Below, in pieces: positions 8,220 to 22,494 of a DNA stretch of 64,000 nt (position 1 is the stretch's first letter; each line of letters starts with the position of its first letter). The notes beneath the pieces are model-generated. The model made no database searches and was not told the DNA's origin. It was given only the letters and a program-made list of their open reading frames with translations. Origin of the DNA: Clostridiales bacterium (GTDB taxonomy: Bacteria; Bacillota; Dehalobacteriia; UBA7702); assembly GCA_040776805.1 (NCBI GenBank), contig JAXGZS010000001.1, positions 621,206-685,205 of the forward strand, given 5' to 3'. A program made the position numbers and the translations under genes.

Positions 8220-9047
8220 TTAGGAAAAACGATCCCCGACCAAAGCGGTGAGAAGTTCGTATTCATCTTGGCTGCCGCGGCCGTGAGGCACGATGCTGCT
8301 GCCGGAATCACTGCCCAAAAGCAGGGGAACATGGAGGGCAGCCGCCTTTTTTACCATCGCGCTATGCGCTTCCACCACGGCTTTCACGATCTCTTGATCC
8401 CAGCCCGAAAGGGCCTTTCCGTAAGTCAGCACATTGGCAAAGGGCGCTAAAGTAGGAGTCCAGGCCACCTGATGTTTTGCCATCAGCTTTAAGATATCCT
8501 CGGTGATGAAATAGCCGTGTTCCACGGAATCCATACCCACTTCGACCACAGAGCGGATGACCTCGGCAAAATTGACATGAACCATGACGGGGAGGCCGCA
8601 TTCATGGGCGGTTTCCCGGATGTAGATCAACTCCCTTTCGCTGAAGCTGCCAAAGATTTCCTGGGGCTTGCCGGTAACATCCACAAGACCGGACTGGACG
8701 ACCTTGACGCAATCGACGCCGCTTTCCATGAGGAAGTGCAGCTCCCTTTTGAGATCGTCCATGGTGCTTAACGGTTTCCCCAAATGGATGCCGTAGCGGT
8801 CTTTTTTCACCAAGGCCCGCCCTGAAGCGGAGAGGTGGATGCCCATGCTCTTTGCTTCCTCCCGTAATTGAAAGGCCAGCATCTTCTTGTCACCGCCGTC
8901 TCTTAGGGCCGTGACGCCGCGGCCCGCGTATTCCAAAAGATTGTTATACGCGTTATCTAAGTCTGTGCCCGCATATTTTTGGCCTCGATTTATTTTGCGG
9001 AAATTGCCGTAAGCCAAATGGATGTGATGATCATAAAGATTCTTCAT
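8220..9047 (-). CDS. Amidohydrolase-family metal-dependent hydrolase (TIM barrel)
   Basis: An N-terminal HHIHLAYG (HxH metal-binding) motif is present, with later His/Asp ligand-like positions. The gene is monocistronic. Confidence 0.6.
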   Translation of the reverse strand: MKNLYDHHIHLAYGNFRKINRGQKYAGTDLDNAYNNLLEYAGRGVTALRDGGDKKMLAFQLREEAKSMGIHLSASGRALVKKDRYGIHLGKPLSTMDDLKRELHFLMESGVDCVKVVQSGLVDVTGKPQEIFGSFSERELIYIRETAHECGLPVMVHVNFAEVIRSVVEVGMDSVEHGYFITEDILKLMAKHQVAWTPTLAPFANVLTYGKALSGWDQEIVKAVVEAHSAMVKKAAALHVPLLLGSDSGSSIVPHGRGSQDEYELLTALVGDRFS

Positions 9048-9270
9048 GCAATCTATTATACTCTTTTTGTCATAAAAGAAAAGTTGTTGCAGCCAATTTA
9101 AGCCGTAAAATGATAAAGAAAGTAAAATAAAATAGAATAAACACGCTGTTTCTCTACTTTCTTTACAAAGTTTATATTCCTGACAAAAAACTCACCTTTT
9201 TTTTTCGACAAAATCTTTTATAATGAAAAAAATATAACAATATTTTATAAAGTAAGCTACAATGAGTTTA

Positions 9271-9395
9271 TGGAAGAGAGCAAAGCTTTCTGGAAAGAGC
9301 AACAAAGATTCATGAGCGGATTTTTAACATATTGTATGAAGCCTCGTGAATGGGTTGTGGAAAAGAGCAAAAACACGGCAGATGGAAAGAAAAAT
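9271..9395 (+). repeat. Four purine-rich direct repeats (TGGAAAGAGCAA-like) in the 5' leader of fhs
   Basis: Copies occur at 9271, 9291, 9359 and 9383: tggaagagagcaaag / tggaaagagcaacaaag / tggaaaagagcaaaaac / tggaaagaaaaa. Confidence 0.5.
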
Positions 9396-9453
9396 TAAAA
9401 GTTCTTTACAAAGGAAAGAAAAGGAAACTAAAAAACGAGAGGAGAACAAAACT

Positions 9454-11211
9454 ATGCTTGATCCTAATGTTATGAAAGACTGGCAAATTGCGGAAGCTGC
9501 GGAGAAAGAATTACCTTCTGTTGACGCATTTCGCGAAAAAATGGGGTTACTTCCCGACGAAATTATTCCCTATGGTCGCACTCCCAAGTTGAATTTTCTC
9601 AAAATCATGGATCGCGTCAAAGATCAACCTGACGGGAAGTTCATCGAAGTTACTGCCATTACCCCCACTCCTTTGGGTGAAGGGAAATCCACCACCTCTT
9701 TGGGTATCATCGAAGGTCTCGGCAAACGCGGCATGAATGTCGGCGGTTGCCTGCGTCAGCCCTCCGGCGGACCGACCATGAACATCAAAGGTACTGCTGC
9801 CGGCGGCGGCAACGCACTGTTGATTCCGATGACGGAATTTTCTTTGGGCCTTACCGGTGATATCAACGAAATCACCAACGCCCACAATCTTTCTATGGTC
9901 GCTTTGAACGCGAGAATGCAGCATGAAAACAATTATAATGATGCAGAGCTGGCGGAAAAAGGTCTGAAACGCTTGGATATTGATCCTGAACGCGTGGAAA
10001 TGGGATGGGTGATTGACTTTGCCGCCCAATGCCTGCGCAACATTGAAATCGGTCTGGGCGGCCCGAAAGACGGCTTCCAGATGAAAAGCAAATTCGGTAT
10101 CTCCGTTAGTTCCGAATTGATGGCGATTCTTGCCGTCGCTCGCGATCTTGCGGACCTTAGAGAACGCGTCGGCAATATCATCGTTGCCTACGACAAACAG
10201 GGCAATCCCGTCACCACCGCTGATTTGCAGGTGGATGGCGCGATGACCGCCTGGATGCGCAATGCCATCAACCCGACTCTCTGTTACACTTCTGAGCTGC
10301 AGCCCTGCCTCGTTCATGCCGGCCCCTTCGCCAACATCGCCATCGGTCAGTCTTCCATCATCGGCGATAGATTGGCCTTGAAGATGTTCGATTACCATGT
10401 TACGGAAAGCGGTTTTGCCGCTGACATCGGTTTCGAAAAATTCTGGAATGTCAAATCCCGTATTTCCGGTTTGACGCCCAATGTCTCGATTCTCGTCTGC
10501 ACCGTTCGCGCCCTTAAAATGCACGGCGGCGGCCCCACCGTGGTTCCCGGCCGTCCTTTACCTGAAGAATACACCAAAGAAAACATCGATCTTCTTGAAA
10601 AAGGCATGTGCAATCTGATTCATCATATCAATACCATTAAAAAGTCGGGGATCAATCCCGTTGTTTGTATCAACAGCTTCAGCAGCGATACCGATGCGGA
10701 AATCAACCTGATTCGTCAAACCTGCGATAAAATGGGCGTTCGCTGCGCGAAATCCGAACATTGGAGATATGGCGGCGAGGGTGCTTTGGATCTGGCCGAT
10801 GCAGTCATCGATGCCTGCAAAGATCCTGTGGATCTCAAATTCCTCTATGACTTGGAAGTTCCCCTGCGTCAACGCGTGGAACTCATCGCCAAAGAAGTTT
10901 ACGGCGCCGACGGCGTAGAATGGTCCGATCTTGCCACTGAAAAGGCGAAACGCTTCGAAGCGGATCCCAAGTACAAAGACTTCTCTACCATGATGGTGAA
11001 AACACATTTGAGCTTGTCTCATGATCCTACCCTGAAAGGCGTGCCCAAAAACTGGAAACTGCCTATCCGCGACGTTTTGGTTTACGGCGGTGCCAAATTC
11101 CTCTGCCCCATGGCGGGTACGATCAGCTTGATGCCCGGTACCAGTTCCCGCCCGGCCTATATGAAGGTCGATGTGGATACCGCCACCGGCGCGGTCAAAG
11201 GACTGTTTTAA
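9454..11211 (+). CDS. fhs: Formate--tetrahydrofolate ligase
   Basis: The protein is alignable to FTHFS along its full length ([12 protein letters not shown]-loop, 586-aa size). ATG at 9454 was chosen over the upstream ORF extension. Confidence 0.95.
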
Positions 11212-11232
11212 AAAAGATAGGAGGGAGCAGCG

Positions 11233-11862
11233 ATGCGATTTGCTGAAAAGACCTGTGATCAAGTGATCACGGAATTGGCTGCAAAAGCTCCCGTTCCCGG
11301 CGGCGGCGGTGCCTCAGCTCTGGTAGGGGCTGTAGGCACCGCCCTCGGCAATATGGTAGGGAGTTTCACCAAAGGAAAGAAAAAATTTGCGGACGTAGAA
11401 GAATCCATTATTTCCCTACAGGAAAAATGCGATGATCTGCAGAACAAGTTTTTAAATCTTATGGATGACGATGCAGAGAACTTTACACCGCTTTCGAAAG
11501 CCTACGGCATGAAAGAGGATACTCAAGAGCAGCGGGAGGAAAAGGCAAGAGTGATGGAGGAAGCGACCGTCAACGCCTGCCGCGTCCCGGAAAAGATTAT
11601 GGAACTATGCTGTGAAGCCATTGACGCTTTGGAGGAGTACCTGAAAATCGGGAATCCTCTCCTCGTCAGTGATGTGGGAGTCGGCGTTCTCTGCTGCAAG
11701 GCCGCCCTTTTTGGCGCGTCTTTGAATGTTTATATCAACACGAAGTCCATGCAAAACAAAGAAACCGCCTCTTCTATCAACGAGAGAACAGGGGAAATGC
11801 TGGCCGCCTACGGCAAAAAGGCGGATGACATTTACCATGCGGTGGCAAGACAGATCCAATAA
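11233..11862 (+). CDS. fchA: Methenyltetrahydrofolate cyclohydrolase (cyclodeaminase-domain protein)
   Basis: FTCD C-terminal cyclodeaminase-like fold (~209 aa, Gly-rich N-terminus VPGGGGASALVGA). It sits between fhs and folD, as in acetogens. Confidence 0.75.
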   Translation: MRFAEKTCDQVITELAAKAPVPGGGGASALVGAVGTALGNMVGSFTKGKKKFADVEESIISLQEKCDDLQNKFLNLMDDDAENFTPLSKAYGMKEDTQEQREEKARVMEEATVNACRVPEKIMELCCEAIDALEEYLKIGNPLLVSDVGVGVLCCKAALFGASLNVYINTKSMQNKETASSINERTGEMLAAYGKKADDIYHAVARQIQ

Positions 11863-11896
11863 ATATTAAACAATAAACAAAAGGAAGGGAGATATT

Positions 11897-12754
11897 ATGG
11901 CAAAGATTTTATCCGGTAAGGAAGTTGCCGCGGCTTTGAAAGAAGATCTTTTAAAACGTGTTGCGGCGTTAAAAGATAAGGGCGTCACGCCAACCTTAGC
12001 CATTGTGCGAGTGGGAGAAAAAGACAGCGACATTGCTTATGAAAAAGGCGCCATGAAAAAATCGGAAACCTTGGGCATTGCCGTGAAAAACGTCATTTTC
12101 CCGGCGGATGTGGAAGAAGCCAAACTCATTGCCGCCCTTGAAGAACTCAACGGCGCCAAGGATGTTCACGGTGTGCTGTTATTCCGTCCGTTACCCGAAC
12201 ATTTGAATTATGACCGTGTCTGCAATACGCTGATTGCGGATAAAGACGTCGACGCCATGACCACCATCAACAGCGGTTTGGTCTATGACGGCAGTGAGGA
12301 CGGGTTCCCTCCCTGCACCGCCCAGGCGGTTATGGAAATATTGGATTATTATGAGATTCCCGTTAAGAGCGCGAAAGTCGCTTTGGTGGGCTGGGGTGCC
12401 GTGGTCGGAAAACCCCTTTCCGTACTGTTGCTGAACCGCTTTGCCACCTTAACGGTGTGTCATATCTTTACAAAAGATGTCTCCACCCCCTGTCAAGACG
12501 CGGAGCTGATTATTTCTGCGGCAGGGAAAGCCAACTTGGTGGGAGAAAAACACTTGGCAAAAGGTCAGATCGTCATCGACGTGGGGATCAACGCAGACCC
12601 CAACAACCCCGGAAAAATCGTGGGGGATGTCGATTATGCTTATGCGGAAAACCTTGTTGACGCCATTACCCCGGTTCCCGGCGGCGTGGGCAGCGTTACC
12701 ACTTCCGTGTTGGCAAAACATGTGATCATGGCTGCTGAAAAAACCCTTAGATAA
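11897..12754 (+). CDS. folD: Bifunctional methylene-THF dehydrogenase / methenyl-THF cyclohydrolase
   Basis: 285 aa. Conserved FolD regions are present, including a GxGxVGKP Rossmann motif (GWGAVVGKP). Confidence 0.9.
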   Translation: MAKILSGKEVAAALKEDLLKRVAALKDKGVTPTLAIVRVGEKDSDIAYEKGAMKKSETLGIAVKNVIFPADVEEAKLIAALEELNGAKDVHGVLLFRPLPEHLNYDRVCNTLIADKDVDAMTTINSGLVYDGSEDGFPPCTAQAVMEILDYYEIPVKSAKVALVGWGAVVGKPLSVLLLNRFATLTVCHIFTKDVSTPCQDAELIISAAGKANLVGEKHLAKGQIVIDVGINADPNNPGKIVGDVDYAYAENLVDAITPVPGGVGSVTTSVLAKHVIMAAEKTLR

Positions 12755-12787
12755 TTCCTTCTAAGGCGACGAAAGGAGTTGAACCAC

Positions 12788-14377
12788 GTGACCAACAGAT
12801 TTAAGGAGTCTCTTTTGGACCCTGGTACCTTTTCGGTAACCTGGGAAATCGTCCCCGGTCGTGGCGCCAATGAAAAAGCCCAGATCGAAGCGATTGAAAC
12901 CGCCAAGGCAGGGGCGAAGGATCCCCGCATCCACGCCATCACCATTACAGACTGTCCCAGCGGGAATCCCGCGATTTTAGCGGAGAATCTGGGCAAAGAG
13001 ATTCTGGATTTGGGCATTGAGCCATTGGTTCATTTTACCTGTAAAGATAAAAACAGAACCCAAATGGAAAGCCAACTGTATGCCATGGCCAGAAGCGGTA
13101 TCCGCAACATACTGGTGATGACCGGTGACTATGTCAACGATGCCTATCAAGGCCGCGCCAAACCGGTTTTTGACATTGACCCCATTCAGTGCGGCGGCTT
13201 GATTTCCACCATGAATCAGGGCTTAGAATATCAAGTCGGTCCCAGAACCATCAAAAACCAACCCACCGATTTCTTTTACGGCTGTGCCGTATCGCCCTTC
13301 AAAAGTCAGGAATCCGAGCAGATCGGACAGTATAACAAGCTGATCAAAAAAGTGAGAGACGGCGGCGCGCAATTTGTCATTTGCCAGCTGGGCTATGATA
13401 TACGGAAATTCCATGAAACCTTCCAATTTATGGAGCAAAATGGGCTGAACGTACCTTTGGTTGGCAATATTTACATTTTGCCTTTCGGCGCAGGGAGATT
13501 GATGAACAGAAACGGGATTCCCGGCGCTGTCGTCACCGATAAGCTTCTGCACCAGCTTGAAAAAGAAAAACAGGCGGAAGATAAGGGCAAAGAAGCGAGA
13601 TTGATGCGGGCTGCAAAAATGTACGGCATCATGAAGGGCATCGGTTTTGCCGGCGCTCACATCGGCGGCCACGGCATGAGCGCCGATGATATGGATTATA
13701 TCATCGTCGAAGGCGAAAAGTACGCGGGTAACTGGAAATCCCATGTAGATGAATTCGATTATCCCATGAAAAACGGTTTCTATTATTATCAGAAGGATCC
13801 CGAAACGGGTCTGAATTCGGAAAAACGTACGGAAATCGATCCCGATAATTTGGAATTCCGCGTGGGCGGGATCTATCATATGTCCCATTTTGTCCACTGG
13901 CTGATGATGACTCCGGGGAAAAATCTTTTTAACTTTATGCGCGGTTTCTACAAACTCATCGACGATACCAAAGTGGAGCGTCCCTATCACTTCTGCGAAC
14001 ACATGGCAAAGGTTATGCTCTATGACTGCAAAGACTGCGGCGACTGCGCCATGACCCATACGGCCTACGCCTGTCCGATGTCGAAATGTCCCAAACATCA
14101 AAGGAACGGCCCCTGCGGCGGCAGCCGTGACGGCTGGTGCGAAGTATATCCCGAGAAGAAGAAATGCATCTACGTCAAAGCCTATACCCGCCTGAAAGGG
14201 TACGGCTTGGAAGAGGAATTATCTACATATTCCGTGGCGCCTTGCGACTGGAAACTTTACCAGAAGCCCTCTTGGGTCAATTATTTCCTCGGCCGCGATC
14301 ATGATGCGAAACGCTTGGGCATTCCTTATGTGCCGCCGAAAGCGGAACGCAAAGCAATGAAACGGAACGCAAAATAA
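12788..14377 (+). CDS. metF: Methylenetetrahydrofolate reductase fused to a C-terminal MetV-like Cys-rich zinc-ribbon domain
   Basis: The N-terminal ~300 aa are alignable to MTHFR (EIVPGRG, HFTCKD, ILVMTGD). The C-terminal ~230 aa carry CKDCGDCA...CPMSKCPKHQRNGPCGG, the MetV / MTHFR-C-terminal-domain signature. GTG at 12788 is preceded by AAGGAG. Confidence 0.85.
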   Translation: MTNRFKESLLDPGTFSVTWEIVPGRGANEKAQIEAIETAKAGAKDPRIHAITITDCPSGNPAILAENLGKEILDLGIEPLVHFTCKDKNRTQMESQLYAMARSGIRNILVMTGDYVNDAYQGRAKPVFDIDPIQCGGLISTMNQGLEYQVGPRTIKNQPTDFFYGCAVSPFKSQESEQIGQYNKLIKKVRDGGAQFVICQLGYDIRKFHETFQFMEQNGLNVPLVGNIYILPFGAGRLMNRNGIPGAVVTDKLLHQLEKEKQAEDKGKEARLMRAAKMYGIMKGIGFAGAHIGGHGMSADDMDYIIVEGEKYAGNWKSHVDEFDYPMKNGFYYYQKDPETGLNSEKRTEIDPDNLEFRVGGIYHMSHFVHWLMMTPGKNLFNFMRGFYKLIDDTKVERPYHFCEHMAKVMLYDCKDCGDCAMTHTAYACPMSKCPKHQRNGPCGGSRDGWCEVYPEKKKCIYVKAYTRLKGYGLEEELSTYSVAPCDWKLYQKPSWVNYFLGRDHDAKRLGIPYVPPKAERKAMKRNAK

Positions 14378-14416
14378 CGCAGTCAGCAGAAATAAGATTT
14401 CAGTTAGGGTGATTTT

Positions 14417-14785
14417 ATGTTCAACATCAGTTTTGCCGAGCTTATGGTTATTCTGCTCATCACCTTCCTGGTGTTGGGACCGAAAGAAATGGCCAAAGTC
14501 GCCCGGGGTTTGGGCAAAGCCGTCAAAAAAGCCCAAAACTTTGTGACGGATATGAAGAACTTTGTCAATGAAAGCGCGGAAGGCACCCCTTTAAACGATA
14601 TGAAGGAGGCGGTTACCGACGTCAAGGAAGCGGTCGATTCAGTAAAAGCCGAAGTTGATAAAATGAACCCTGTCAGTGATCTCAAAAAAGAGATCGAAAC
14701 GGAAATCAAACCGATACAAGACATCAAAAACTTAAAGACCAATCCTGCCAAAAAAGGAGCGGATCTTTTGCAGAAAAAAAAGTAA
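14417..14785 (+). CDS. tatB: TatA/TatB family twin-arginine translocase subunit
   Basis: An N-terminal TM helix is followed by a hinge and an amphipathic helix (FGPKEMAKVARGLGKAVKK). The acidic/charged tail is longer than in TatA. Confidence 0.75.
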   Translation: MFNISFAELMVILLITFLVLGPKEMAKVARGLGKAVKKAQNFVTDMKNFVNESAEGTPLNDMKEAVTDVKEAVDSVKAEVDKMNPVSDLKKEIETEIKPIQDIKNLKTNPAKKGADLLQKKK

Positions 14786-14815
14786 AATCCTTTTAAGAAA
14801 GGGGGAAACCTCTCA

Positions 14816-16429
14816 ATGAGTAAGGGAAATAAAAAGGAAAAAATTGATCCCAAACTAACAAGACGACAATTCTTGGGACTTACCGCCGCCGCCGGTACCA
14901 TGGCGGCGCTCACCGGTTGCGATGTTGTGGATAAAGTAGGCGGCAATGACAATTGGCTGCCCACCCAATACCGCAACAGCGGCAACTACCCGATCAACGC
15001 CAAGGGGCGCATTCCCATCGATCCCGATAATCCGTCGATCATGCGCATCGACGAGAAATGCATCCTCTGCGGGCAGTGCATTGAGGTATGCCAGAATACA
15101 CAGACCATTCACGGTTACTATAAATTGCCTGTTTTGGATACCTTTATGTGCATTAACTGCGGGCAGTGCAGTTTGTGGTGTCCCACCGGTGCCATCCAGG
15201 AAAAGCCCTATATCGACGAGGTTAATGCAGCCATCAACGATCCCGATAAGATCGTGGTGGTGGCCATCTCTCCCGGGGTGCGCATCTCCATCGGCGAAGA
15301 ATTCGGCATGGAGGCGGGGACTTGGGCCCAGGAACAAATGGTTACTGCCGTCCGCCGTCTCGGTGCGGATTACGTATTCAATATCGACTTCTCCTCAGAC
15401 TCCACCATCATGGAGGAAGGCAGCGAGTTTGTCCACCGTGTTACCAACGATGGTGTTCTGCCTCAGTTTACCTCCTGCTGTCCGGCATGGAAGAAATTTG
15501 TCGAATTATACTATCCGGAATTGATTCCCAACATCTCATCGGCAAAAAGCCCCGTGGCGGAAATGGCTGCCTTGGTAAAGACCTATTGGGCGAAGAAAAA
15601 AGGGATCGATCCCTCTAAAATCGTCTATGTGAACGTTCCGCCCTGTACCTGCAAGAAATTCGAAGCCACCACGTTCAATATCGATTCGGCAGCCCGATAT
15701 TGGGAAGAATATGAAGATATCGATTACGGTGCTATCCCCGATATCGATTATGTGCTTTCCACCAGAGAGCTGGCGAGGATGATCAAAACCGCTAATATTG
15801 ATTTTGTCAATTTGCCCGCGGGAGAATTCGACCCCATGCTCAGTGAAGGCAGCGGCGCGGCGGTGATTTTCGCCAACAACGGCGGCGTGATGGAAGCGGC
15901 GATTCGTACCGCCTATTATCTCGTCACCGGAGAGGATCCCCCGGACGACCTTTATCATTTGACGGCTGTCCGCGACAACGACCTCGACGGGTATGCCGAA
16001 GGCAGCCTTGAGGTTCCCGGTTTCGGCACCCTCAATGTGGCGGTTTGCAACGGGTTACACGCCGCCCGTACCCTCTGTGAAGAGATCAAACAGGGCAAAC
16101 GCCCTGAATTGCATTTCCTGGAAGTCATGGCCTGTCCCGGCGGTTGTATCGGCGGCGGCGGCCAGGCCAGAAAAACAGTGCCTCCTACGGACGCTCTGCG
16201 GAAAGCCCGTATTGATTCCATTTACGCTGCCGATGAGGCCATGAATAAAGCGGACAGAGTCAGCTACAAGAATGCTGAAATCGCCACTTTATACAAAGAA
16301 TTCCTCGGTGAGCCTTTGAGCGAACTGTCGGAGTTACTCCTGCATATGCACTACATCGACAGAAGTAAGTCGGTCCATCCGAAAGATACCTCGGATTACG
16401 TCGATACTTACTTCTCCGGTTTGGAATAG
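14816..16429 (+). CDS. hydA: [FeFe]-hydrogenase catalytic subunit with Tat signal peptide and lipobox (exported, membrane-anchored)
   Basis: The N-terminus carries an RRQFLG twin-arginine motif followed by a lipobox LTGC. There are two ferredoxin-like CxxCxxCxxxCP motifs. All three H-cluster signatures are present: TSCCPAW (L1), PPCTCKKFE (L2) and MACPGGCIGGGGQ (L3). Confidence 0.9.
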   Translation: MSKGNKKEKIDPKLTRRQFLGLTAAAGTMAALTGCDVVDKVGGNDNWLPTQYRNSGNYPINAKGRIPIDPDNPSIMRIDEKCILCGQCIEVCQNTQTIHGYYKLPVLDTFMCINCGQCSLWCPTGAIQEKPYIDEVNAAINDPDKIVVVAISPGVRISIGEEFGMEAGTWAQEQMVTAVRRLGADYVFNIDFSSDSTIMEEGSEFVHRVTNDGVLPQFTSCCPAWKKFVELYYPELIPNISSAKSPVAEMAALVKTYWAKKKGIDPSKIVYVNVPPCTCKKFEATTFNIDSAARYWEEYEDIDYGAIPDIDYVLSTRELARMIKTANIDFVNLPAGEFDPMLSEGSGAAVIFANNGGVMEAAIRTAYYLVTGEDPPDDLYHLTAVRDNDLDGYAEGSLEVPGFGTLNVAVCNGLHAARTLCEEIKQGKRPELHFLEVMACPGGCIGGGGQARKTVPPTDALRKARIDSIYAADEAMNKADRVSYKNAEIATLYKEFLGEPLSELSELLLHMHYIDRSKSVHPKDTSDYVDTYFSGLE

Positions 16430-16442
16430 GAGGTGAGCATTG

Positions 16443-17267
16443 ATGAGTAGTAATAGTGCTGTTTTATTCAACGTTGCCAAATGCATTGGCTGCGGCAGCT
16501 GTACCGTTGCCTGCAAACTATGGAACGACCTTGAATTCGGGGATAGCAATGCTCACGGATTTGACGCGGCATTGGCCGCGGATAACTGGACCGTTGTTCA
16601 GTATCACGCCATTAAAAACAAAGAGGATCAAAGCGTATTCCGTTTTGCCAAACGCCAATGTATGCACTGCCTGGAACCTTCTTGCGCTTCCGTTTGTTTC
16701 GCCAACGCCATTACCGTGGACGAAAGCGGCGCCGTGGTTTACAGCCCCAAAAAATGTGTGGGTTGCCGCTATTGCCTGATTGCCTGTCCCTTTGACGTGC
16801 CGAAATACGAGTGGAATAAGGTCTTCCCTTCGGTGATGAAATGCCAGCTTTGCAATGATAAATTGGCGGAAGGCGAAATTCCTTCCTGCGTTTCGGTTTG
16901 TCCCACCGGCGCCCTTATTTTCGGCGACCGCGACAAACTGCTGGAAAAAGCCCATGCCATCATCGCCACTTCCGCGGCCACGGAAAATATGGAAGCAACC
17001 CATTACGTCAATGAGGTCTACGGTGAAAAACAGGCGGGGGGTACCCGTTGGCTGTATATCTCCGACGTTCCTTTCACGGAATTGGGCTTCCCCGCTTCCG
17101 TGCCGAAGAAGAGCATACCGGGAATTGTCCAAGATTACACCAAGTGGAAACCGGGGGTATTTCTGGGAGCCGCCGCGGCCTTTGGCGCCATCGGCATCTA
17201 TACCAAACGCAGACTGAAAATTGAAGAAGAAAAAGCCGGTGAGAATGGAGGCGAAAATAATGTTTGA
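16443..17267 (+). CDS. Four-cluster [4Fe-4S] electron-transfer subunit (FdnH/HybA/PsrB-like) with C-terminal TM anchor
   Basis: Four Cys clusters are present (CIGCGSCTVAC, CMHCLEPSCASVC, CVGCRYCLIACP, CQLC...CVSVCP). There is no signal peptide. A C-terminal hydrophobic helix GVFLGAAAAFGAIGIY is followed by KRRLK. Confidence 0.85.
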   Translation: MSSNSAVLFNVAKCIGCGSCTVACKLWNDLEFGDSNAHGFDAALAADNWTVVQYHAIKNKEDQSVFRFAKRQCMHCLEPSCASVCFANAITVDESGAVVYSPKKCVGCRYCLIACPFDVPKYEWNKVFPSVMKCQLCNDKLAEGEIPSCVSVCPTGALIFGDRDKLLEKAHAIIATSAATENMEATHYVNEVYGEKQAGGTRWLYISDVPFTELGFPASVPKKSIPGIVQDYTKWKPGVFLGAAAAFGAIGIYTKRRLKIEEEKAGENGGENNV

Positions 17268-18471
17268 TTATACTCTCAAGATCAATAAAAAAGCAAGTTT
17301 TCGCTTTACACTGACGCGTTGGATCCTTTTGCTTTTGGCCGCGTTCGGCATCTTCATTTTGATCTACCGCCTCATCAACGGCTTGGGGGCCACCACGAAT
17401 TTGTCTGACGAATGGCCCTGGGGCTTTTGGATCTATATGGATTTGATCTTAAGCGCCTTGGGCGCCTGCGGTTTCGCCGTCGCCATTCTAACCCACATTT
17501 TCCATGTGGAAAAATTCAAACCGTTGGCCCGCAGAGCCTTGCTGATGTCATTTTGCTGTTATGTCCTCGTATTCCTGATTCTCTTTATTGAAATCGGGCG
17601 TTGGGATAACTTCTACTGGTTCTTTATTTCGGGAGCTTTTACTTCACCCCTTTATGAAGTGGCCATTTGTATCACCCTCTACATCATCGTGCAGGTATTT
17701 GAACTTTTGGAAGTTTGGGGCGACCGTTATAAATCCTGGGTGAAACATATTACCCGGTTTTTCCTGCCCTTCTTTGTCCTCTTGGCCTGTATCATTCCCT
17801 TTGGTCAAGAAGCGGCATACGGCGCGCTTTACCTGGCGATGCCGGCGAAACTCAGCACGATTTGGTACTCGCAATTCCTGCCTTGGGCTTGTTTGATCAC
17901 TTCGTTTTCCGGTGGTCTCTGTTTTGTGGCTGCGGAATATTACGCCCACAACCGTCACTATAAAAAGACCTCCGACGACGCCATGATCAAGAGCTTGCTG
18001 CGGGTTGCCGGTGCCTTCATCCTCATCTACATCGTACTGAAATTCGTCGATCTTTCCGTGCGCGGCGCCTGGACCGAAGTGTTCTCCGGCTCTGCTTCCG
18101 GAAATATGTTCCTCGTAGAATTCATTGTGGGTTCCATTGTTCCTGCGGTGCTGATTTTCAGCCCCATGATCAAGAACTCAATGTGTCAGCTGATTGCCGC
18201 CATTTGCGGTATATTGGGTGTATTAATCAATCGTTTTGATTTCGTTTTTGTCGGCATGGCAGGCTACACCGACGTATCCTATTTCCCCAAATGGACAGAA
18301 ATTTGGCTGGTCATCGGCCTTACCGCGCTGGTGGCGCTAGTCTATATCTTCGCCGTTGAAAACCTTCCCGTCAACCAGGGGAAACACGACGAAAAACCGG
18401 ACATCGTCAGCCGTCCGCCGGCAGGGATCATCCATGTATCCAAAAATGAACAAAACAGTGTTTCTGAATAA
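17260..18471 (+). CDS. NrfD/PsrC/HybB-family integral membrane (quinone-interacting) subunit
   Basis: ~400 aa with 8-10 hydrophobic helices. The typical NrfD-like N-terminal region is present. ATG at 17260 is preceded by GGAGG and overlaps the upstream gene by 8 nt. Confidence 0.8.
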   Translation: MFDYTLKINKKASFRFTLTRWILLLLAAFGIFILIYRLINGLGATTNLSDEWPWGFWIYMDLILSALGACGFAVAILTHIFHVEKFKPLARRALLMSFCCYVLVFLILFIEIGRWDNFYWFFISGAFTSPLYEVAICITLYIIVQVFELLEVWGDRYKSWVKHITRFFLPFFVLLACIIPFGQEAAYGALYLAMPAKLSTIWYSQFLPWACLITSFSGGLCFVAAEYYAHNRHYKKTSDDAMIKSLLRVAGAFILIYIVLKFVDLSVRGAWTEVFSGSASGNMFLVEFIVGSIVPAVLIFSPMIKNSMCQLIAAICGILGVLINRFDFVFVGMAGYTDVSYFPKWTEIWLVIGLTALVALVYIFAVENLPVNQGKHDEKPDIVSRPPAGIIHVSKNEQNSVSE

Positions 18472-18515
18472 ACACGTTATTCTTGCCGAGAAGTAGGCAG
18501 AAGGGGGATGCTCTT

Positions 18516-18752
18516 ATGAGAATTGGTGTATGGGAAATACTTCTGATCATCGTTTTGGTGCTTATCCTTTTTGGTGGCGCCAAGTTAGCCGGGGTCGGCA
18601 AAAACTTGGGACGCGGCATCAAAGAGTTTAAAGAAGAGGTTAAAGACACCGGCGAATCCTCTCCACAGGTTGCGGAAGCGTCTGCGGAAGAAACCAAAAA
18701 AGCGGAAGATACCGAAAAAAAGGAAGCTAAAAATTCCGAGCCCGACGCATAA
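18516..18752 (+). CDS. tatA: Twin-arginine translocase subunit TatA
   Basis: ILLIIVLVLILFGGAKLAGVGKNLGRGIKEFK is a canonical TatA TM-hinge-amphipathic-helix region. Confidence 0.9.
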   Translation: MRIGVWEILLIIVLVLILFGGAKLAGVGKNLGRGIKEFKEEVKDTGESSPQVAEASAEETKKAEDTEKKEAKNSEPDA

Positions 18753-18778
18753 TAAGTTTATCATTTCGTAAGAAGAAG

Positions 18779-19570
18779 GTGAGGCCATTGGCTGATACGA
18801 AGCAGGCGCTGATAGAGCATTTGAATGAGTTGCGCAAAACCTTGATGTATTGCGTGATTGTCTTAGCTGTTAGCTTTGTGCTTGTATTCGCGTTGTTTTG
18901 CGATCCGCTGATGGAGATACTCTTGGCGCCGATCCGCAAGCTCGGTGTGGAATTGGTCTATACGACCTTGACCGAAGTTTGGGTGGTGAAAATGAAAGTC
19001 TCCTTTATTGCGGGGTTTGTGCTTTCTTTTCCCGTCATTTCTTTCTTTTTCTGGCGCTTTCTGCGCCCGGCCTTGTATGCCAGTGAAAAAAGAATGTTTG
19101 CCGTGATGTATTTTTCCTCCCTTTTTCTTTTTATTCTCGGTGTTTGCTTCGCTTTTGTCGCCGTATTGGGTCTAAGCATCAATTTCTTTATTTCCTTTGG
19201 CAGCGGCACTGCTGAACCCATGCTCTCCATCAGCAAGGTGGTCAGCTATATGATGAGCTTCATCATTCCTTTCGGCTTAGTATTCTTGCTGCCTTTGGTG
19301 GTGTATATCCTTACTAAAATCGGCGTCTTGTCTCCCGCGTTATTGGTGAAATCGCGGAAGTATGTCATCGTGATTCTGTCTGTTTTGGCGGCGATTTTGA
19401 CACCTCCGGATATCATTTCACAAATTTTGCTCCTCATTCCTATGCTTCTTTTGTGGGAAATCAGCGTGTTCATCGCGAAACGCGTAAAAGTGAACAAAGA
19501 CCGGCGTGAGGCCAGAGAAAGCCTCGACGCCGGCATAAAAAAGGATGAATCAAAGAGTACAACGGAATAA
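18779..19570 (+). CDS. tatC: Twin-arginine translocase subunit TatC
   Basis: Six TM helices are predicted, with the N-terminal LIEHLNELRKTL signature and the size typical of TatC. Confidence 0.9.
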   Translation: MRPLADTKQALIEHLNELRKTLMYCVIVLAVSFVLVFALFCDPLMEILLAPIRKLGVELVYTTLTEVWVVKMKVSFIAGFVLSFPVISFFFWRFLRPALYASEKRMFAVMYFSSLFLFILGVCFAFVAVLGLSINFFISFGSGTAEPMLSISKVVSYMMSFIIPFGLVFLLPLVVYILTKIGVLSPALLVKSRKYVIVILSVLAAILTPPDIISQILLLIPMLLLWEISVFIAKRVKVNKDRREARESLDAGIKKDESKSTTE

Positions 19571-19706
19571 CGGTCTACTGTAAGCCTTGGTACTGAAGGT
19601 ACTTCTGTCCATTGAAAAGACGCTTTACAAAAATCGTTCGCAACCGCAAAGGGCATCTTCGCGATTGCCGTTGTTTCGCCTTGATACACGAAAGAAGGAG
19701 AATATT

Positions 19707-20528
19707 ATGAGTTTTTTAGCTCCCAATGAAATTGCGAAGGCAGTTTCAACCCTTGGCGAAAAGAAGGGGAAAATGTCTGTCGGCAAACTGATTCTGCCCG
19801 GCCTCCTCGCCGGTGCGTATATTGCTTTGGCCGCAGTGGCCTGTATCACCATAGGCGCCGGCTGGGTCGGCGACTGGGCGGCTTCCGGCTTGAATAAGGC
19901 CGCCGGCGCCGCCGCCTTTACCGTCGGCCTCATGCTTGTGGTGGTTGCCGGCGCCGAATTGTTTACCGGTGACAATATGTATTGCGCCGTTTCTTACCTG
20001 GATAAAAAATCCACCCTTGGTGAGTTGGTGAGAAACTGGGTCACGGTTTACTTCACCAACTTCATCGGCGCCCTGGTCGTGGTATCCATGATCTATTTGG
20101 GCGGTTTCCTCCTAGCCAACGGTGAGCCTTCGGCTTTCGCGACCAAAGCCATTGCCATCGCCACGGCAAAATCCTCCCTCACCTGGGGGCAGGCATTCTT
20201 CCGCGGTATTTTCTGTAACTGGCTGGTTTGCCTCGCCGTCTGGATGGCCGTGGGCTCCCAGGATATTATCAGCAAGATCTTTGCTTGCTTTTTCCCCATC
20301 TTCACCTTCGTACTTTGCGGTTTTGAACACAGTGTCGCCAATATGTTCTTCATTCCCATGGGGATCATCGCGGCCAACGGTTCCGTGGATGTTCTCACCG
20401 TCAGCAACTTTTTAGTGGGCAACCTGATCCCCGTTACCCTCGGCAACATTGTCGGCGGCGGTATTTTCGTGGGTCTCGTTTACTACCTCATGTACCTCAA
20501 AGGCGCGGATGTCAAATTGAAAGCCTAA
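19707..20528 (+). CDS. focA: Formate/nitrite transporter family channel (FocA-like)
   Basis: FNT signature motifs ELFTGDNMY and FEHSVANM are present, with six TM segments. ATG at 19707 is preceded by AAGGAG. Confidence 0.85.
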   Translation: MSFLAPNEIAKAVSTLGEKKGKMSVGKLILPGLLAGAYIALAAVACITIGAGWVGDWAASGLNKAAGAAAFTVGLMLVVVAGAELFTGDNMYCAVSYLDKKSTLGELVRNWVTVYFTNFIGALVVVSMIYLGGFLLANGEPSAFATKAIAIATAKSSLTWGQAFFRGIFCNWLVCLAVWMAVGSQDIISKIFACFFPIFTFVLCGFEHSVANMFFIPMGIIAANGSVDVLTVSNFLVGNLIPVTLGNIVGGGIFVGLVYYLMYLKGADVKLKA

Positions 20529-20635: not shown

Positions 20636-20675
20636 ACCTCTGTGCTTTGATGGCACAGAGGTTCTTTTTTGGCTC
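20636..20675. terminator. Rho-independent terminator after focA
   Basis: cctctgtgc tttgatg gcacagagg, followed by ttcttttttgg. Confidence 0.75.
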
Positions 20676-20737: not shown

Positions 20738-21154
20738 CTATTTTACAACCAGCACGGAACAGGGCGCCAAGCGCACAAGGCTTGCGCAGGTGCTGCCCAT
20801 GATCCTTTCATAAATTGCCGATACGCCCAAAAAGCCGATGATCAAGAGATCGATGTCTTGCTCCATGATAAACTCAATTATCGCCTTTACCTCATGTCCA
20901 AATAAGATATGAGGGATAATGGCGCCGCCCTCCGCGGCGGCGACGGCTTGCGCTTCCTCGATAATTTTTTTGTATTTGCTGTCTTCGTAATCCTTTTCAT
21001 CCATCACTTCGCTGATGGTTTCCGGAAAGCGCAGCATGGCCTCCACGGATACGGTATGCAATGGGGCGTCATAAAAACGTGCAAGCCGTATGCCCTCCGC
21101 CAACGCCTTAAAGGCGTTTTTTGAACCATCAAGACCTACCAGTATCTTGTTCAT
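20738..21154 (-). CDS. uspA: Universal stress protein (UspA family)
   Basis: 138 aa with USP-fold ATP-binding motifs (VGLDGS near the N-terminus, GSTCASL near the C-terminus). Co-operonic with the antiporter. Confidence 0.8.
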   Translation of the reverse strand: MNKILVGLDGSKNAFKALAEGIRLARFYDAPLHTVSVEAMLRFPETISEVMDEKDYEDSKYKKIIEEAQAVAAAEGGAIIPHILFGHEVKAIIEFIMEQDIDLLIIGFLGVSAIYERIMGSTCASLVRLAPCSVLVVK

Positions 21155-22412: not shown

Positions 22413-22494
22413 AAAAAACTCCTACAAATGACGCAAAGCCGCGTATCTGTAGGAGTCATTAGCTAAAAAGCGATTCAGTGAACTCCATCACTAT
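22413..22494 (-). promoter_or_regulatory. Fluoride riboswitch (crcB motif), copy 2 (gene-proximal), with intrinsic terminator
   Basis: Minus-strand RNA: AGUGAUGGAGUUCACU-GAAUCGC-...-GCUAAUGACUCCUAC. It has a P1 helix, an AUGGAGUU loop, an AAAC-like joint and the conserved 3' AAUGACUCCUAC pseudoknot strand. The terminator hairpin at 22419-22455 (ctcctaca...tgtaggag plus U-run) overlaps the 3' aptamer strand. Confidence 0.8.

What the first reader, a model, noticed from the sequence alone, without database searches (positions are those of the whole stretch)
9454..19570. Single ~10-kb operon joining the Wood-Ljungdahl methyl branch (fhs-fchA-folD-metFV) to an exported [FeFe]-hydrogenase complex and its own TatABC
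Intergenic gaps from fhs through tatC are all 45 nt or less, or the genes overlap, and no terminator is visible until after focA. This implies co-transcription of THF-dependent C1 reduction genes with a periplasm-facing hydrogenase and a dedicated Tat machinery. Acetogens normally pair MetFV with cytoplasmic HdrABC-MvhD or flavin-based modules. Here there is no hdr/mvh gene; instead a membrane-bound, quinone-linked module follows directly. That suggests a different electron route for methylene-THF reduction or for H2/formate cycling. This is inference only.
Basis: partly seen in the sequence, partly recalled or inferred. Interest (0 to 1): 0.8.

Follow-up and report, generated by a model that had tools for sequence, protein, structure and literature searches.

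The report
C1 operon wired to exported hydrogenase
An uncultured methyl-eating, acetate-forming bacterium keeps its formate-to-methyl-folate genes in one conserved operon with an outward-facing membrane hydrogenase, its export machinery and a formate channel. This is genetic support for a long-suspected membrane route between hydrogen and the folate pathway.

Summary
Eleven co-directional genes (9454-20528) have gaps of 39 nt or less from fhs to tatC. The order is fhs, fchA, folD, a fused metF-metV, a tatB-like gene, a Tat-exported lipoprotein [FeFe] hydrogenase, a HybA/FdnH-like ferredoxin, a HybB/NrfD-like membrane subunit, tatA, tatC and focA. One strong terminator follows at 20636-20662.

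The window belongs to genus UBA7702 (class Dehalobacteriia). Published KO tables for that order list complete CODH/ACS and 25-57 MttB-family methyltransferases. They list no formate dehydrogenase, no PFL, no HdrA/MvhD and a single metF.

The same gene order recurs in at least seven diverged lineages. It survived an in-place replacement of the hydrogenase catalytic gene, which argues for selection on the linkage.

Best reading, inferred and not shown: a reversible, probably quinone-mediated chain between external H2 and the methylene-/methyl-THF couple, with formate entering or leaving through FocA. It resembles the Sporomusa ovata "third way" but is built from different parts.

Main weaknesses:
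- There is no transcript or enzyme data.
- Quinone biosynthesis is unverified.
- The direction of electron flow is unknown.

Verdict: a new variant of a known kind, of real interest to acetogen bioenergetics.

The parts
9180..9453 (+). Putative promoter and roughly 230-nt leader. It holds a conserved CTGACA (9180-9185), a perfect TATAAT (9219-9224) and three copies of TGGAARAGAGCAA (9272, about 9293, 9359).
   Evidence: Aligned with L001 at 81% column identity, with these blocks conserved. No Rfam family matches. Its function is not shown.
9454..11211 (+). fhs, formate--tetrahydrofolate ligase (585 aa)
   Evidence: PF01268, E = 1.2e-215. It is 84-92% identical in the related operons.
11233..11862 (+). 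fchA, methenyl-THF cyclohydrolase (FTCD_C family, 209 aa)
   Evidence: PF04961, E = 8.3e-63.
11897..12754 (+). folD, bifunctional methylene-THF dehydrogenase/cyclohydrolase (285 aa)
   Evidence: PF00763 plus PF02882.
12779..14377 (+). Fused metF-metV methylene-THF reductase (532 aa). It has no transmembrane helix and no signal peptide.
   Evidence: PF02219 (residues 12-274) plus PF12225 (residues 399-491). Eight Cys are invariant in the C-terminal domain across 25 homologs. The hydropathy scan finds no TM segment.
14417..14785 (+). TatA/B-family protein, TatB-like (122 aa, one N-terminal TM helix)
   Evidence: PF02416. TIGR01410 tatB scores 49.7 bits, below its 56.5-bit cut-off. One TM helix.
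14816..16429 (+). Group A [FeFe] hydrogenase (537 aa), Tat-exported lipoprotein. It has two [4Fe-4S] motifs, the H-cluster domain and a fused small-subunit domain.
   Evidence: PF02906, PF02256 and Fer4. TIGR02512 scores 418 bits, above its 405.95-bit cut-off. The TRRQFLG motif, the LTGC lipobox and the H-cluster Cys are invariant in 26 homologs.
16440..17267 (+). HybA/FdnH/HmcB-like ferredoxin (16 Cys, enough for four [4Fe-4S] clusters). It has no signal peptide of its own and carries a C-terminal membrane anchor followed by KRRLK.
   Evidence: Best PDB match is FdnH 1kqf_B, E = 1.7e-37. NCBIfam gives HmcB 5.3e-70 and HybA 5.5e-66, with query residues 6-267 aligned to HybA profile positions 40-325, so the leader is missing.
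17221..18471 (+). HybB/NrfD-family integral membrane subunit (about 10 TM helices). The likely start is ATG 17260, which overlaps the hybA-like stop.
   Evidence: PF03916. NCBIfam PRK10881 (E. coli HybB) matches at 4.2e-59 over the full length, followed by HmcC and QrcD. HybB residues R89, Y99, S129, E133, E148 and R329 are conserved, and H184 is Gln.
18483..18752 (+). tatA (likely start ATG 18516, 78 aa)
   Evidence: PF02416. TIGR01411 tatAE, E = 1.8e-14.
18779..19570 (+). tatC (263 aa)
   Evidence: PF00902, E = 2.7e-60.
19707..20528 (+). focA-like formate/nitrite-family channel (273 aa, 6 TM helices)
   Evidence: PF01226, E = 1.2e-82. TIGR00790 is above its cut-off, and TIGR04060 focA scores 230 bits, below its 290-bit cut-off. 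The gene is present at the same position in seven related operons.
20636..20672 (+). Intrinsic terminator closing the unit
   Evidence: 11-bp stem with 6 G-C pairs, a 5-nt loop and a TCTTTTTTGG tail.

Best explanation
The eleven genes form one transcription unit. It encodes (a) the formate-to-methyl-THF branch: Fhs, FchA, FolD and a fused MetF-MetV reductase. It also encodes (b) an outward-facing membrane hydrogenase complex: a Tat-exported, lipid-anchored [FeFe] catalytic subunit, a co-exported four-cluster ferredoxin with a tail anchor, and a haem-free HybB/NrfD-type subunit. The remaining genes are (c) the Tat components that export that complex and (d) a formate channel.

Proposed mechanism (inferred). 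The hydrogenase complex exchanges electrons with a membrane quinone at the HybB-like subunit, and this exchange is coupled to the proton gradient as in E. coli hydrogenase-2. The soluble MetFV exchanges electrons with the same quinone pool at the inner face of the membrane. The chain would be reversible.

With H2 and formate plentiful, H2 is oxidised outside the cell and methylene-THF is reduced inside. This forms a redox loop that builds proton-motive force.

During growth on methylated amines, methyl-THF is oxidised and the electrons enter the quinone pool. The proton gradient then drives them out as H2. The host order carries 25-57 MttB-type methyltransferase genes and no formate dehydrogenase. 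Formyl-THF yields ATP plus formate, and the formate leaves through FocA.

Shown: gene identities, export signals, topology features, operon architecture, conservation, and the host's published gene inventory. Inferred: co-transcription, quinone mediation, the MetFV-quinone contact, and direction.
For: Architecture: tight junctions and a single terminator.

Export and topology:
- The RR-x-F motif and the lipobox Cys are invariant in 26 homologs.
- The ferredoxin lacks a leader and has an FdnH-like tail anchor.
- The membrane subunit matches E. coli HybB over its full length. It keeps the quinone-pocket Ser129, the gate Arg329 and four of five proton-path residues (residue roles from PMC8076601).

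Conservation:
- The same order occurs in L001, L003/L004, L014, L164-166, L169 and L171/172.
- Across these, Fhs is 84-92% identical and MetFV 73-90%.
- The hydrogenase falls into two subclades only 52-58% identical to each other. This split cuts across the relationships shown by the flanking genes. The catalytic gene was therefore replaced in place while the linkage was kept.

Specificity: 80 metagenome loci carrying more distant fused MetFV genes (52-61% identity) have no neighbouring hydrogenase.

Host:
- AspS is 97% identical to MAG UBA7702, and RUG11176 (L004) belongs to the same GTDB genus.
- The published KO table for UBA7702 lists acsB, acsC, acsD and cooS as present.
- The same table lists fdhF 0, pflD 0, metF 1, hdrA 0, mvhD 0, rnf 0 and F-ATPase present.
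- For quinone-related genes it lists menA 1 and sdh/frdABC 1.
- It also lists one tatA and one tatC, and 25 mttB-family genes.

Precedents:
- S. ovata membranes catalyse H2-dependent methylene-THF reduction through a periplasmic hydrogenase (PMC9430772).
- Thermacetogenium phaeum has a quinone-dependent MTHFR and a periplasmic FDH (PMC6895022).
Against: - There are no transcript, protein or activity data for any member of this clade.
- Quinone biosynthesis is not established. The UBA7702 KO table lists menA but no menB, ubiE/menG or mqn genes. These are KO calls on MAGs 85-93% complete.
- Menaquinone (E0' -74 mV) is too positive to reduce methylene-THF (-200 mV) without extra driving force. 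The same problem was noted for S. ovata. The reductive direction therefore needs a low-potential quinone or extra coupling.
- MetFV has no membrane anchor. No fused MetFV has been characterised.
- C. ljungdahlii MetFV is reported to use reduced ferredoxin (title of PMC8515935).
- Related hydrogenase modules exist without any C1 genes (L002, L170, L173, Anaerovibrio, Desulfotruncus). The module is therefore not intrinsically tied to MetFV.
- I could not confirm that the UBA7702 MAG used for the KO table carries this operon.
Confidence: 0.5

Rival explanations
1. Co-regulation without a shared electron path. The operon simply co-expresses two functions needed under the same conditions, namely H2/formate-rich or methylotrophic growth. 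The hydrogenase charges or discharges the quinone pool for another enzyme, such as the fumarate reductase/succinate dehydrogenase listed for UBA7702. MetFV takes or gives electrons through ferredoxin, NAD(P)H or the neighbouring bifurcating HydABC.
For: - The Tat-hyd-hybA-nrfD module occurs alone in other genomes.
- The UBA7702 KO table lists sdh/frdABC.
- NuoE/NuoF-like plus HydA genes lie directly downstream of the operon in L003, L164 and L169.
- A ferredoxin-dependent two-subunit MetFV is reported for C. ljungdahlii (PMC8515935).
Against: - The immediate adjacency of metFV and tatB/hyd (39 nt or less) is kept across seven lineages and across a hydrogenase swap.
- The relative's KO table lists no alternative MTHFR partner such as Hdr, MvhD or Rnf.
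Confidence: 0.3
2. Assimilatory formate use. The operon imports formate and makes C1-folates for purine and methionine synthesis, and the hydrogenase acts only as a general reductant source.
For: - fhs-fchA-folD-metF genes also serve biosynthesis.
- No formate dehydrogenase or PFL is listed for the relative, so external formate would be useful.
Against: - A MetV-containing reductase, a dedicated Tat system and a pmf-linked membrane hydrogenase are heavy machinery for biosynthetic flux.
- The host order has complete CODH/ACS and dozens of MttB-type methyltransferases, which points to catabolic C1 flow.
Confidence: 0.08
3. Two independent operons that merely abut. A promoter hidden in the 3' end of metFV drives tatB-hyd-...-focA separately, and the adjacency is a historical accident of one lineage.
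For: - In L002 and L170, tatB-hyd-hybA-nrfD-tatA-tatC is a free-standing unit with its own upstream region.
- A weak promoter-like site (9 of 12 matches) lies at 13850-13879, inside metFV.
Against: - Promoter-like hits are not enriched over shuffled sequence.
- No terminator follows metFV.
- The junction stays at 17-39 nt in all seven lineages, and in L003 metFV abuts hyd directly with no tatB.
- The linkage persisted through gene replacement.
Confidence: 0.1

Closest known systems
Sporomusa ovata H2:methylene-THF electron transport chain, the 'third way' (Kremp, Roth and Muller 2022, PMC9430772)
   Same: A hydrogenase with an outward-facing catalytic site is proposed to be linked through the membrane to a MetV/MetF-type methylene-THF reductase. 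The chain is proposed to be reversible and to serve methyl-group oxidation as well.
   Different: S. ovata uses cytochrome b-containing periplasmic hydrogenases (HupSLC and HydA2B2C2) and an unfused MetVF bound to HdrCBA-MvhD. Here the parts are an [FeFe] enzyme with HybA/HybB-type partners, no cytochrome b gene, a fused MetFV and no Hdr/Mvh. All of them lie in one operon, together with the Tat genes and focA.
Thermacetogenium phaeum quinone-dependent MTHFR plus periplasmic formate dehydrogenase (Keller et al. 2019, PMC6895022)
   Same: Methyl-THF oxidation is proposed to be linked, through menaquinone and reversed electron transport, to an outward-facing low-potential enzyme.
   Different: The outward-facing enzyme there is a formate dehydrogenase, not a hydrogenase. 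The MTHFR cluster there is metFV-hdrCBA-mvhD. The abstract places the formate dehydrogenase cluster next to putative menaquinone synthesis genes, not in one operon with the C1 genes as here.
E. coli hydrogenase-2 (HybOABC)
   Same: It has a HybA-type four-cluster ferredoxin and a haem-free HybB (NrfD-family) subunit. Hydrogenase-2 is a periplasmic-facing membrane complex described as a proton pump (PMC5902676 abstract), and the HybB-type subunit interacts with quinones (PMC8076601). Six of the seven functional HybB residues I checked are conserved here.
   Different: The catalytic subunits in E. coli are [NiFe] (HybOC). E. coli HybA has its own N-terminal RRNF leader, whereas this ferredoxin has none. 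HybB His184 is Gln here. All matches fall below the NCBIfam equivalog cut-offs.
Tat-exported membrane-associated [FeFe] hydrogenases of Desulfotomaculum-type Firmicutes (e.g. Desgi_0926-0928, PMC4148979)
   Same: A membrane-associated [FeFe] hydrogenase with a Tat motif in the catalytic subunit, annotated as a three-gene cluster (Desgi_0926-0928). It is about 50% identical to Desulforamulus and Desulfotomaculum proteins. The ferredoxin and NrfD-like partners were seen in the Desulfotruncus locus L060.
   Different: Those clusters are not joined to fhs-fchA-folD-metFV or focA (for example L060). They are described only from genome annotation.
Known acetogen MTHFR arrangements: two-subunit MetFV (C. 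ljungdahlii), RnfC2-MetFV (A. woodii), MetFV-HdrCBA-MvhD (M. thermoacetica)
   Same: The MetF catalytic domain is combined with the Cys-rich MetV module, within a methyl-branch gene cluster.
   Different: Here MetF and MetV are one polypeptide, with MetF first. No RnfC2, Hdr or MvhD partner is encoded nearby, and by KO table none is encoded in the closest relative. A membrane hydrogenase follows instead.

Membership tests
Wood-Ljungdahl methyl-branch gene cluster | Fhs, a cyclohydrolase, the FolD dehydrogenase and MTHFR (MetF with MetV) encoded together | tested here: met
   PF01268, PF04961, PF00763 plus PF02882, and PF02219 plus PF12225 lie in consecutive genes. MetF and MetV are fused.
Wood-Ljungdahl methyl-branch gene cluster | The host has the carbonyl branch (CODH/ACS), so the branch serves acetyl-CoA synthesis or cleavage | tested here: inconclusive
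   There is no acs or coo gene in the 64-kb window. The published KO table for the congeneric MAG UBA7702 lists acsB, acsC, acsD and cooS. This was not checked in the window's own genome.
Group A [FeFe] hydrogenase | H-cluster domain with the three Cys-containing signature motifs, plus accessory [4Fe-4S] motifs | tested here: met
   TIGR02512 scores 418 bits against a 405.95-bit cut-off. TSCCP, PCxxKK and CPGGCxxGGGQ, plus 8 ferredoxin Cys, are invariant. The second motif has Pro in place of the usual Met in this subclade.
Tat-exported lipoprotein | A twin-arginine motif (S/T-R-R-x-F-L) followed by a hydrophobic stretch and a lipobox Cys | tested here: met
   The N-terminus reads LTRRQFLG...AALTGC. 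R16, R17, F19, G34 and C35 are invariant in 26 homologs. Export itself cannot be tested here.
HybA/HybB-type (NrfD-family) quinone-linked membrane module, as in E. coli hydrogenase-2 | Four-cluster ferredoxin subunit on the outer face with a membrane anchor | tested here: met
   It has 16 Cys in four CxxCxxCxxxC-type motifs. The FdnH match (1kqf_B, 1.7e-37) extends toward the chain's C-terminal region. HybA matches at 5.5e-66, below the equivalog cut-off.
HybA/HybB-type (NrfD-family) quinone-linked membrane module, as in E. coli hydrogenase-2 | Haem-free NrfD-family subunit with the conserved quinone-pocket Ser, the gate Arg and the proton-path residues | tested here: met
   PF03916. The HybB profile matches at 4.2e-59 over the full length. 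S129, R329, R89, Y99, E133 and E148 are conserved, and H184 is replaced by Gln. About 10 TM helices.
HybA/HybB-type (NrfD-family) quinone-linked membrane module, as in E. coli hydrogenase-2 | [NiFe] catalytic dimer (HybO/HybC) | tested here: not met
   The catalytic subunit is an [FeFe] enzyme, and no NiFe subunit is encoded in the operon. It works like Hyd-2 at the membrane end but is not a member.
HybA/HybB-type (NrfD-family) quinone-linked membrane module, as in E. coli hydrogenase-2 | Actual reduction or oxidation of menaquinone, coupled to the proton gradient | not testable with these tools
   Only indirect evidence is available. The relative's KO table lists menA and sdh/frdABC, but not menB, menG or mqn.
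S. ovata-type H2:methylene-THF respiratory chain | Hydrogenase with its catalytic site outside the cytoplasmic membrane | tested here: met
   Tat signal and lipobox. Dedicated tat genes lie in the operon.
S. ovata-type H2:methylene-THF respiratory chain | Cytochrome b anchor and a MetVF-HdrCBA-MvhD complex | tested here: not met
   There is no cytochrome b, Hdr or MvhD gene in the window. The UBA7702 KO table lists hdrA 0, hdrC 0 and mvhD 0.
S. ovata-type H2:methylene-THF respiratory chain | Membranes catalyse H2-dependent methylene-THF reduction | not testable with these tools
   This needs biochemistry on an enrichment culture or on heterologously produced proteins.
Formate channel FocA | FNT-family pentameric channel specific for formate | tested here: inconclusive
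   TIGR00790 (FNT family) is above its cut-off (236.4 vs 232.3 bits). TIGR04060 focA scores 230.5 bits, below its 290.1-bit cut-off. Formate specificity is inferred from context.

The most novel reading that the evidence does not exclude
The operon encodes a self-contained respiratory/reverse-respiratory unit. The fused MetFV docks on, or exchanges quinol directly with, the HybB-like subunit of an exported [FeFe] hydrogenase. This H2:methylene-THF oxidoreductase would be the main chemiosmotic coupling site of Rnf-less, formate-dehydrogenase-less methylotrophic acetogens of the order UBA7702. It would let them grow on H2 plus formate, or run backwards as a proton-gradient-driven H2 valve for methyl-group oxidation, possibly with H2 recaptured by the neighbouring bifurcating HydABC.
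Probability: 0.3. Interest if true: 0.85.

Novelty: new variant of a known kind. Interest (0 to 1): 0.64.

Why it matters
How methylene-THF reduction, the only strongly exergonic step of the Wood-Ljungdahl pathway, is tied to energy conservation is a question of long standing. The reverse question, how methyl-THF oxidation is made feasible, is equally old. The literature calls it an enigma of about 90 years (PMC9430772).

The only experimental model, S. ovata, involves many loosely associated parts and an unidentified membrane partner. Here evolution has placed a minimal candidate set in one conserved operon: one fused reductase, one three-subunit outward-facing hydrogenase, its export system and a formate channel. 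The host apparently lacks Hdr/MvhD, Rnf and formate dehydrogenase.

That gives a compact hypothesis that can be tested genetically. It also gives a small set of genes for heterologous reconstitution. In addition, it suggests what the poorly known rumen and digester lineage UBA7702 does: convert methylated amines, H2 and formate. This bears on H2/formate budgets and methane formation in those systems.

Tried and rejected
1. Riboswitch or known RNA in the 400-nt region upstream of fhs. The Rfam E-value search of 8900-9600 gave only a chance snoRNA hit.
2. Genome-collection scan with a hydrogenase alignment. The conserved H-cluster patterns pulled in generic cytoplasmic [FeFe] hydrogenases. Only 7 of 80 loci covered the Tat N-terminus, so this could not give a clean frequency of the linkage.
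3. Metagenome scan with the fused-MetFV alignment. It returned 80 loci at 52-61% identity, and none has a neighbouring hydrogenase. This is useful as a negative control. It showed no general membrane partner for fused MetFV. The neighbours are heterogeneous (acsE, acsC/D, RACo, corrinoid proteins, an amidase).
4. PDB sequence search with the NrfD-like subunit found no hit at E <= 1.
5. Retrieving the window's own contig or hydrogenase record returned 'not on record'. I therefore could not scan the window's own genome for acs, men, fdh, rnf or ech.
6. Looking for focA, hybA or hybB in the published KO table. These KOs are absent for all ten genomes. The table under-annotates such genes and cannot show whether the UBA7702 MAG carries the operon.
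7. Formate hydrogenlyase reading. I rejected it because no formate dehydrogenase is encoded in the operon or window, and none is listed for the relatives.
8. The promoter-like site at 19681-19708 as a separate focA promoter. I rejected it because its -10 box overlaps the focA ATG at 19707.
9. Literature searches for this gene combination found no description of it.

Full report
**What is there**

ORF listing and family scans show eleven consecutive + strand genes between 9454 and 20528:

| Gene | Coordinates | Identification |
|---|---|---|
| fhs | 9454-11211 | PF01268 |
| fchA | 11233-11862 | PF04961 |
| folD | 11897-12754 | PF00763 + PF02882 |
| metF-metV | 12779-14377 | single 532-aa ORF, MTHFR domain at the N-terminus (PF02219), MetV-type Cys-rich domain at the C-terminus (PF12225) |
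| tatB-like | 14417-14785 | TatA/B family |
| hyd | 14816-16429 | 537-aa group A [FeFe] hydrogenase |
| hybA-like | 16440-17267 | 16-Cys ferredoxin |
| nrfD-like | 17221-18471 | NrfD family |
| tatA | 18483-18752 | TatA/E family |
| tatC | 18779-19570 | PF00902 |
| focA-like | 19707-20528 | FNT-family channel |

metF and metV are fused. The Tat genes are split around the hydrogenase genes. focA belongs to the unit.

**Operon architecture**

Gaps from fhs to tatC are 21, 34, 24, 39, 30 and 10 nt, then an overlap, then 11-44 and 26 nt. Shine-Dalgarno-like purine runs precede most of the chosen start codons. The tatC-focA spacer is 136 nt and has no terminator-like hairpin with a T-run.

The only strong + strand terminator is at 20636-20662 (11-bp stem, 6 G-C pairs, T-run). 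Consensus promoter-like and terminator-like hits inside the genes are no more frequent than in shuffled sequence.

The promoter-like site at 19681-19708 overlaps the focA start codon, so it cannot serve focA.

Upstream of fhs lies a 400-nt A+T-rich region. It contains a perfect TATAAT (9219-9224) conserved in the closest relative, and three copies of TGGAARAGAGCAA in the leader. No Rfam family matches there. Co-transcription is therefore well supported by architecture, but it is not demonstrated.

**The hydrogenase module**

- *Catalytic subunit.* It carries LTRRQFLG followed by a hydrophobic stretch and LTGC. In an alignment of 26 homologs the two Arg, the Phe, the Gly-Cys of the lipobox, all eight ferredoxin Cys and the H-cluster motifs are invariant. 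It is a Tat-exported lipoprotein with the small-subunit domain fused at its C-terminus.
- *Ferredoxin.* It has no leader. It aligns to HybA from profile position 40 onward. It is most similar to FdnH (1kqf_B, 1.7e-37), HmcB and HybA. It ends in a hydrophobic tail followed by KRRLK. It therefore looks like a partner that is co-exported and tail-anchored.
- *Membrane subunit.* It has about 10 TM helices. It matches the E. coli HybB profile over its full length (4.2e-59), then HmcC and QrcD.

I aligned the membrane subunit to E. coli HybB, fetched. It keeps the Ser129 that the Calisto and Pereira review finds in all quinone-reactive NrfD-like subunits. It also keeps the gate Arg329, plus Arg89, Tyr99, Glu133 and Glu148. 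His184 is Gln in this clade. The membrane end thus works like the HybA-HybB module of hydrogenase-2, attached to an [FeFe] enzyme.

Such Tat-type [FeFe] hydrogenases have been noted in Desulfotomaculum genome papers (Desgi_0926-0928). They have not been studied biochemically in anything I could find.

**The reductase**

The fused MetF-MetV is a widespread, well conserved family. Mean column identity is 73% across Thermincola, Desulfitobacterium, Desulfosporosinus, Dehalobacterium, Syntrophales and others. Eight Cys are invariant in the C-terminal domain. It has no TM helix and no signal peptide. Only the MetF part has relatives in the PDB.

**Is the linkage conserved?**

Yes, in a defined clade. 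The full order fhs-fchA-folD-metFV-(tatB)-hyd-hybA-nrfD-tatA-(tatC)-focA occurs in these loci:
- L001
- L003/L004 (rumen MAG RUG11176)
- L014
- L164-166
- L169
- L171/172

The metFV-to-next-gene gap is 17-39 nt in all of them. Several also carry a LysR regulator and HydE/G/F upstream, and a NuoE/NuoF-like plus HydA (bifurcating-type) hydrogenase downstream.

By contrast, 80 metagenome loci with more distant fused MetFV genes (52-61% identity) have no hydrogenase neighbour. The nearest outgroup MetFV (63%) sits directly behind acsB-acsC-RACo-cooC-acsD-acsE. More distant Tat-hyd-hybA-nrfD modules stand alone in L002, L170, L173, Anaerovibrio, Desulfotruncus and Gracilibacteraceae.

The strongest argument for selection on the linkage comes from the identity matrices. 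Fhs, MetFV, HybA-like and NrfD-like proteins relate the seven lineages in one consistent way. The hydrogenase splits them into two subclades that are only 52-58% identical. L004, for example, is closer to L014 in every flanking gene:

| Protein | L004 vs L014 | L004 vs window |
|---|---|---|
| Fhs | 92% | 87% |
| MetFV | 86% | 79% |
| NrfD-like | 76% | 68% |
| Hydrogenase | 56% | 69% |

The catalytic gene was therefore exchanged in place while the operon frame was retained.

**Who is the host?**

The window carries OLE RNA, 6S RNA and spoIID. Its AspS has a 100% match on an unretrievable 709,774-nt NCBI contig. It has a 97% match in GCA_002482535.1.

Song et al. 2023 (PMC10327494, Table S1) list that assembly as MAG UBA7702. 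Its GTDB placement is class Dehalobacteriia, order, family and genus UBA7702. It came from a methanol-fed fuel-cell anode biofilm and has 49.5% GC. RUG11176 is listed as a second species of the same genus, from bovine rumen.

Their text states that the complete Wood-Ljungdahl pathway, including AcsAB, is present in the order UBA7702. Their KO table (column order) gives for UBA7702:

| Gene(s) | Count |
|---|---|
| acsB, acsC, acsD | 1 each |
| cooS | 2 |
| fhs | 2 |
| metF | 1 |
| fdhF/fdoG | 0 |
| pflD | 0 |
| hdrA, hdrC, mvhD | 0 |
| rnf | 0 |
| echC-F | 1 |
| F-type ATPase | present |
| menA | 1 |
| menB, ubiE, mqn | none |
| sdh/frdABC | 1 each |
| tatA, tatC | 1 each |
| mttB-family | 25 (57 in RUG14212) |
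| mttC | 6 |

The window itself holds an MttB-family gene with a TetR regulator (37495-39555). MttB genes also lie near the clusters in L002, L003 and L171/172.

These are KO calls on MAGs 85-93% complete. The table lacks focA and hybA/B KOs altogether. Absences are therefore indicative only, and I could not confirm that the UBA7702 MAG itself carries the operon.

**How it most likely works**

The hosts appear to be methylotrophic Wood-Ljungdahl organisms that cannot interconvert formate and CO2. That makes sense of focA: formate is either a required input or a dead-end product of the methyl branch.

The relative's KO table lists a single MTHFR gene and no Hdr/MvhD or Rnf. In this clade the fused MTHFR sits next to a hydrogenase whose active site is outside the cell. 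The membrane subunit of that hydrogenase has the hallmarks of a quinone-reactive, proton-coupled HybB.

I therefore propose a reversible chain: external H2 <-> [FeFe] hydrogenase <-> four-cluster ferredoxin <-> quinone at the HybB-like subunit <-> MetFV <-> methylene-/methyl-THF.

*Reductive direction.* H2 (E0' -414 mV) to methylene-THF (-200 mV) releases about 41 kJ/mol. With H+ released outside and consumed inside, this would build proton-motive force, as argued for S. ovata.

*Oxidative direction.* Methyl-THF to menaquinone (-74 mV) is downhill. The quinol-to-H2 step would be driven by the proton gradient. This is as proposed for T. phaeum with a periplasmic formate dehydrogenase, by analogy with Syntrophomonas wolfei. 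Formyl-THF would give ATP plus formate for export.

The MttB expansion, the methanol-fed source of UBA7702 and the lack of formate dehydrogenase make the oxidative mode at least as likely as the reductive one.

**Weak points**

- No expression or enzyme data exist.
- Quinone synthesis is unverified.
- Menaquinol cannot reduce methylene-THF without extra driving force.
- MetFV has no obvious membrane-binding element.
- The hydrogenase module also exists without C1 genes.

The main rival reading is co-regulation without a shared electron path. In that reading MetFV uses ferredoxin or the neighbouring HydABC, and the hydrogenase serves the quinone pool for fumarate reductase.

**Comparison with what is known, and novelty**

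Functionally the closest system is the S. ovata 'third way'. This locus fails two defining features of that system, because it has no cytochrome b and no HdrCBA-MvhD.

At the membrane end it works like E. coli Hyd-2, but it is not a member because its catalytic subunit is [FeFe]. It is a member of the little-studied Tat-type [FeFe] hydrogenases of Desulfotomaculum-like Firmicutes, and of the fused-MetFV family.

What seems undescribed is the conserved operon that joins these modules with Tat and FocA. The only comparative paper on the class does not mention it. Only two papers in the library mention UBA7702 at all. Nine searches of the paper library found no description of this gene combination.

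I rate it a new variant of a known kind, with interest 0.64.

Noticed in passing
window 515-1118 (+) and 60085-60262 (+): A full-length OLE RNA (419.9 bits) and a 6S RNA. The ORF directly downstream of OLE (1126-1722) has no Pfam match.
   Followed up: no
window 22443-22501 and 22549-22611 (-), upstream of 21129-22361 (-) and 20738-21154 (-): Two fluoride riboswitch aptamers lie in tandem ahead of a Na+/H+ exchanger-family gene and a universal stress protein gene, immediately downstream of and convergent with the operon. I did not look into whether a tandem arrangement is usual for this riboswitch class.
   Followed up: no
window 37495-38904 (-) and 38962-39555 (-); also L002, L003, L171/L172: An MttB-superfamily methyltransferase with a TetR regulator lies in the window. 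MttB genes with sigma-54 activators recur near the hydrogenase clusters of relatives. Published KO tables list 25-57 MttB-family genes in this order, which points to methylated-amine use.
   Followed up: partly
window 9180-9453 (+); L001 4257-4669: The fhs leader holds three copies (four in L001) of TGGAARAGAGCAA downstream of a conserved TATAAT. The motif is absent from the five related loci checked upstream of fhs (L003, L004, L164, L169, L171), most of which carry a LysR regulator gene upstream of fhs instead. No Rfam match. It may be an operator or a leader-RNA element.
   Followed up: partly
window 17221-18471 (residue aligned to E. coli HybB His184): The proton-path His184 of HybB is Gln in every C1-linked operon and in L002. 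His is kept in the stand-alone modules of Desulfotruncus, Anaerovibrio, L170 and L173.
   Followed up: partly
window 14816-16429 (hydrogenase residues about 275-283): The second H-cluster motif reads PPCTCKK, with Pro where the other subclade and most homologs in the alignment have Met (MPC). The consequence for catalysis is unknown.
   Followed up: no
L004, L014, L164, L169, L171 versus the window: The hydrogenase catalytic gene belongs to two subclades (52-58% identical) that cut across the relationships of the flanking operon genes. This indicates an in-place swap of the catalytic subunit. L003/L004 also lack tatB and tatC in the cluster.
   Followed up: yes
window 39641-40547 (+): Three short consecutive ORFs in different frames look like the remains of a frame-shifted Fic-type gene, in a 2.4-kb stretch without long ORFs.
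   Followed up: no
window 26148-30411 (-); L170 4365-8702: A very large BcrAD_BadFG plus DUF2229 'CoA enzyme activase' gene lies 6 kb from the operon. A homologous giant gene sits next to the stand-alone Tat-hydrogenase cluster in L170.
   Followed up: no
L176 16189-21681 versus L167 12488-17856: The PRC-YrzR-AI-2E-alaS-ireB-ruvX block follows mnmA in the UBA7702 MAG. In the outgroup L167 it follows the acs cluster plus metFV. This suggests metFV was relocated from the acs neighbourhood to the fhs operon in the UBA7702 lineage.
   Followed up: partly
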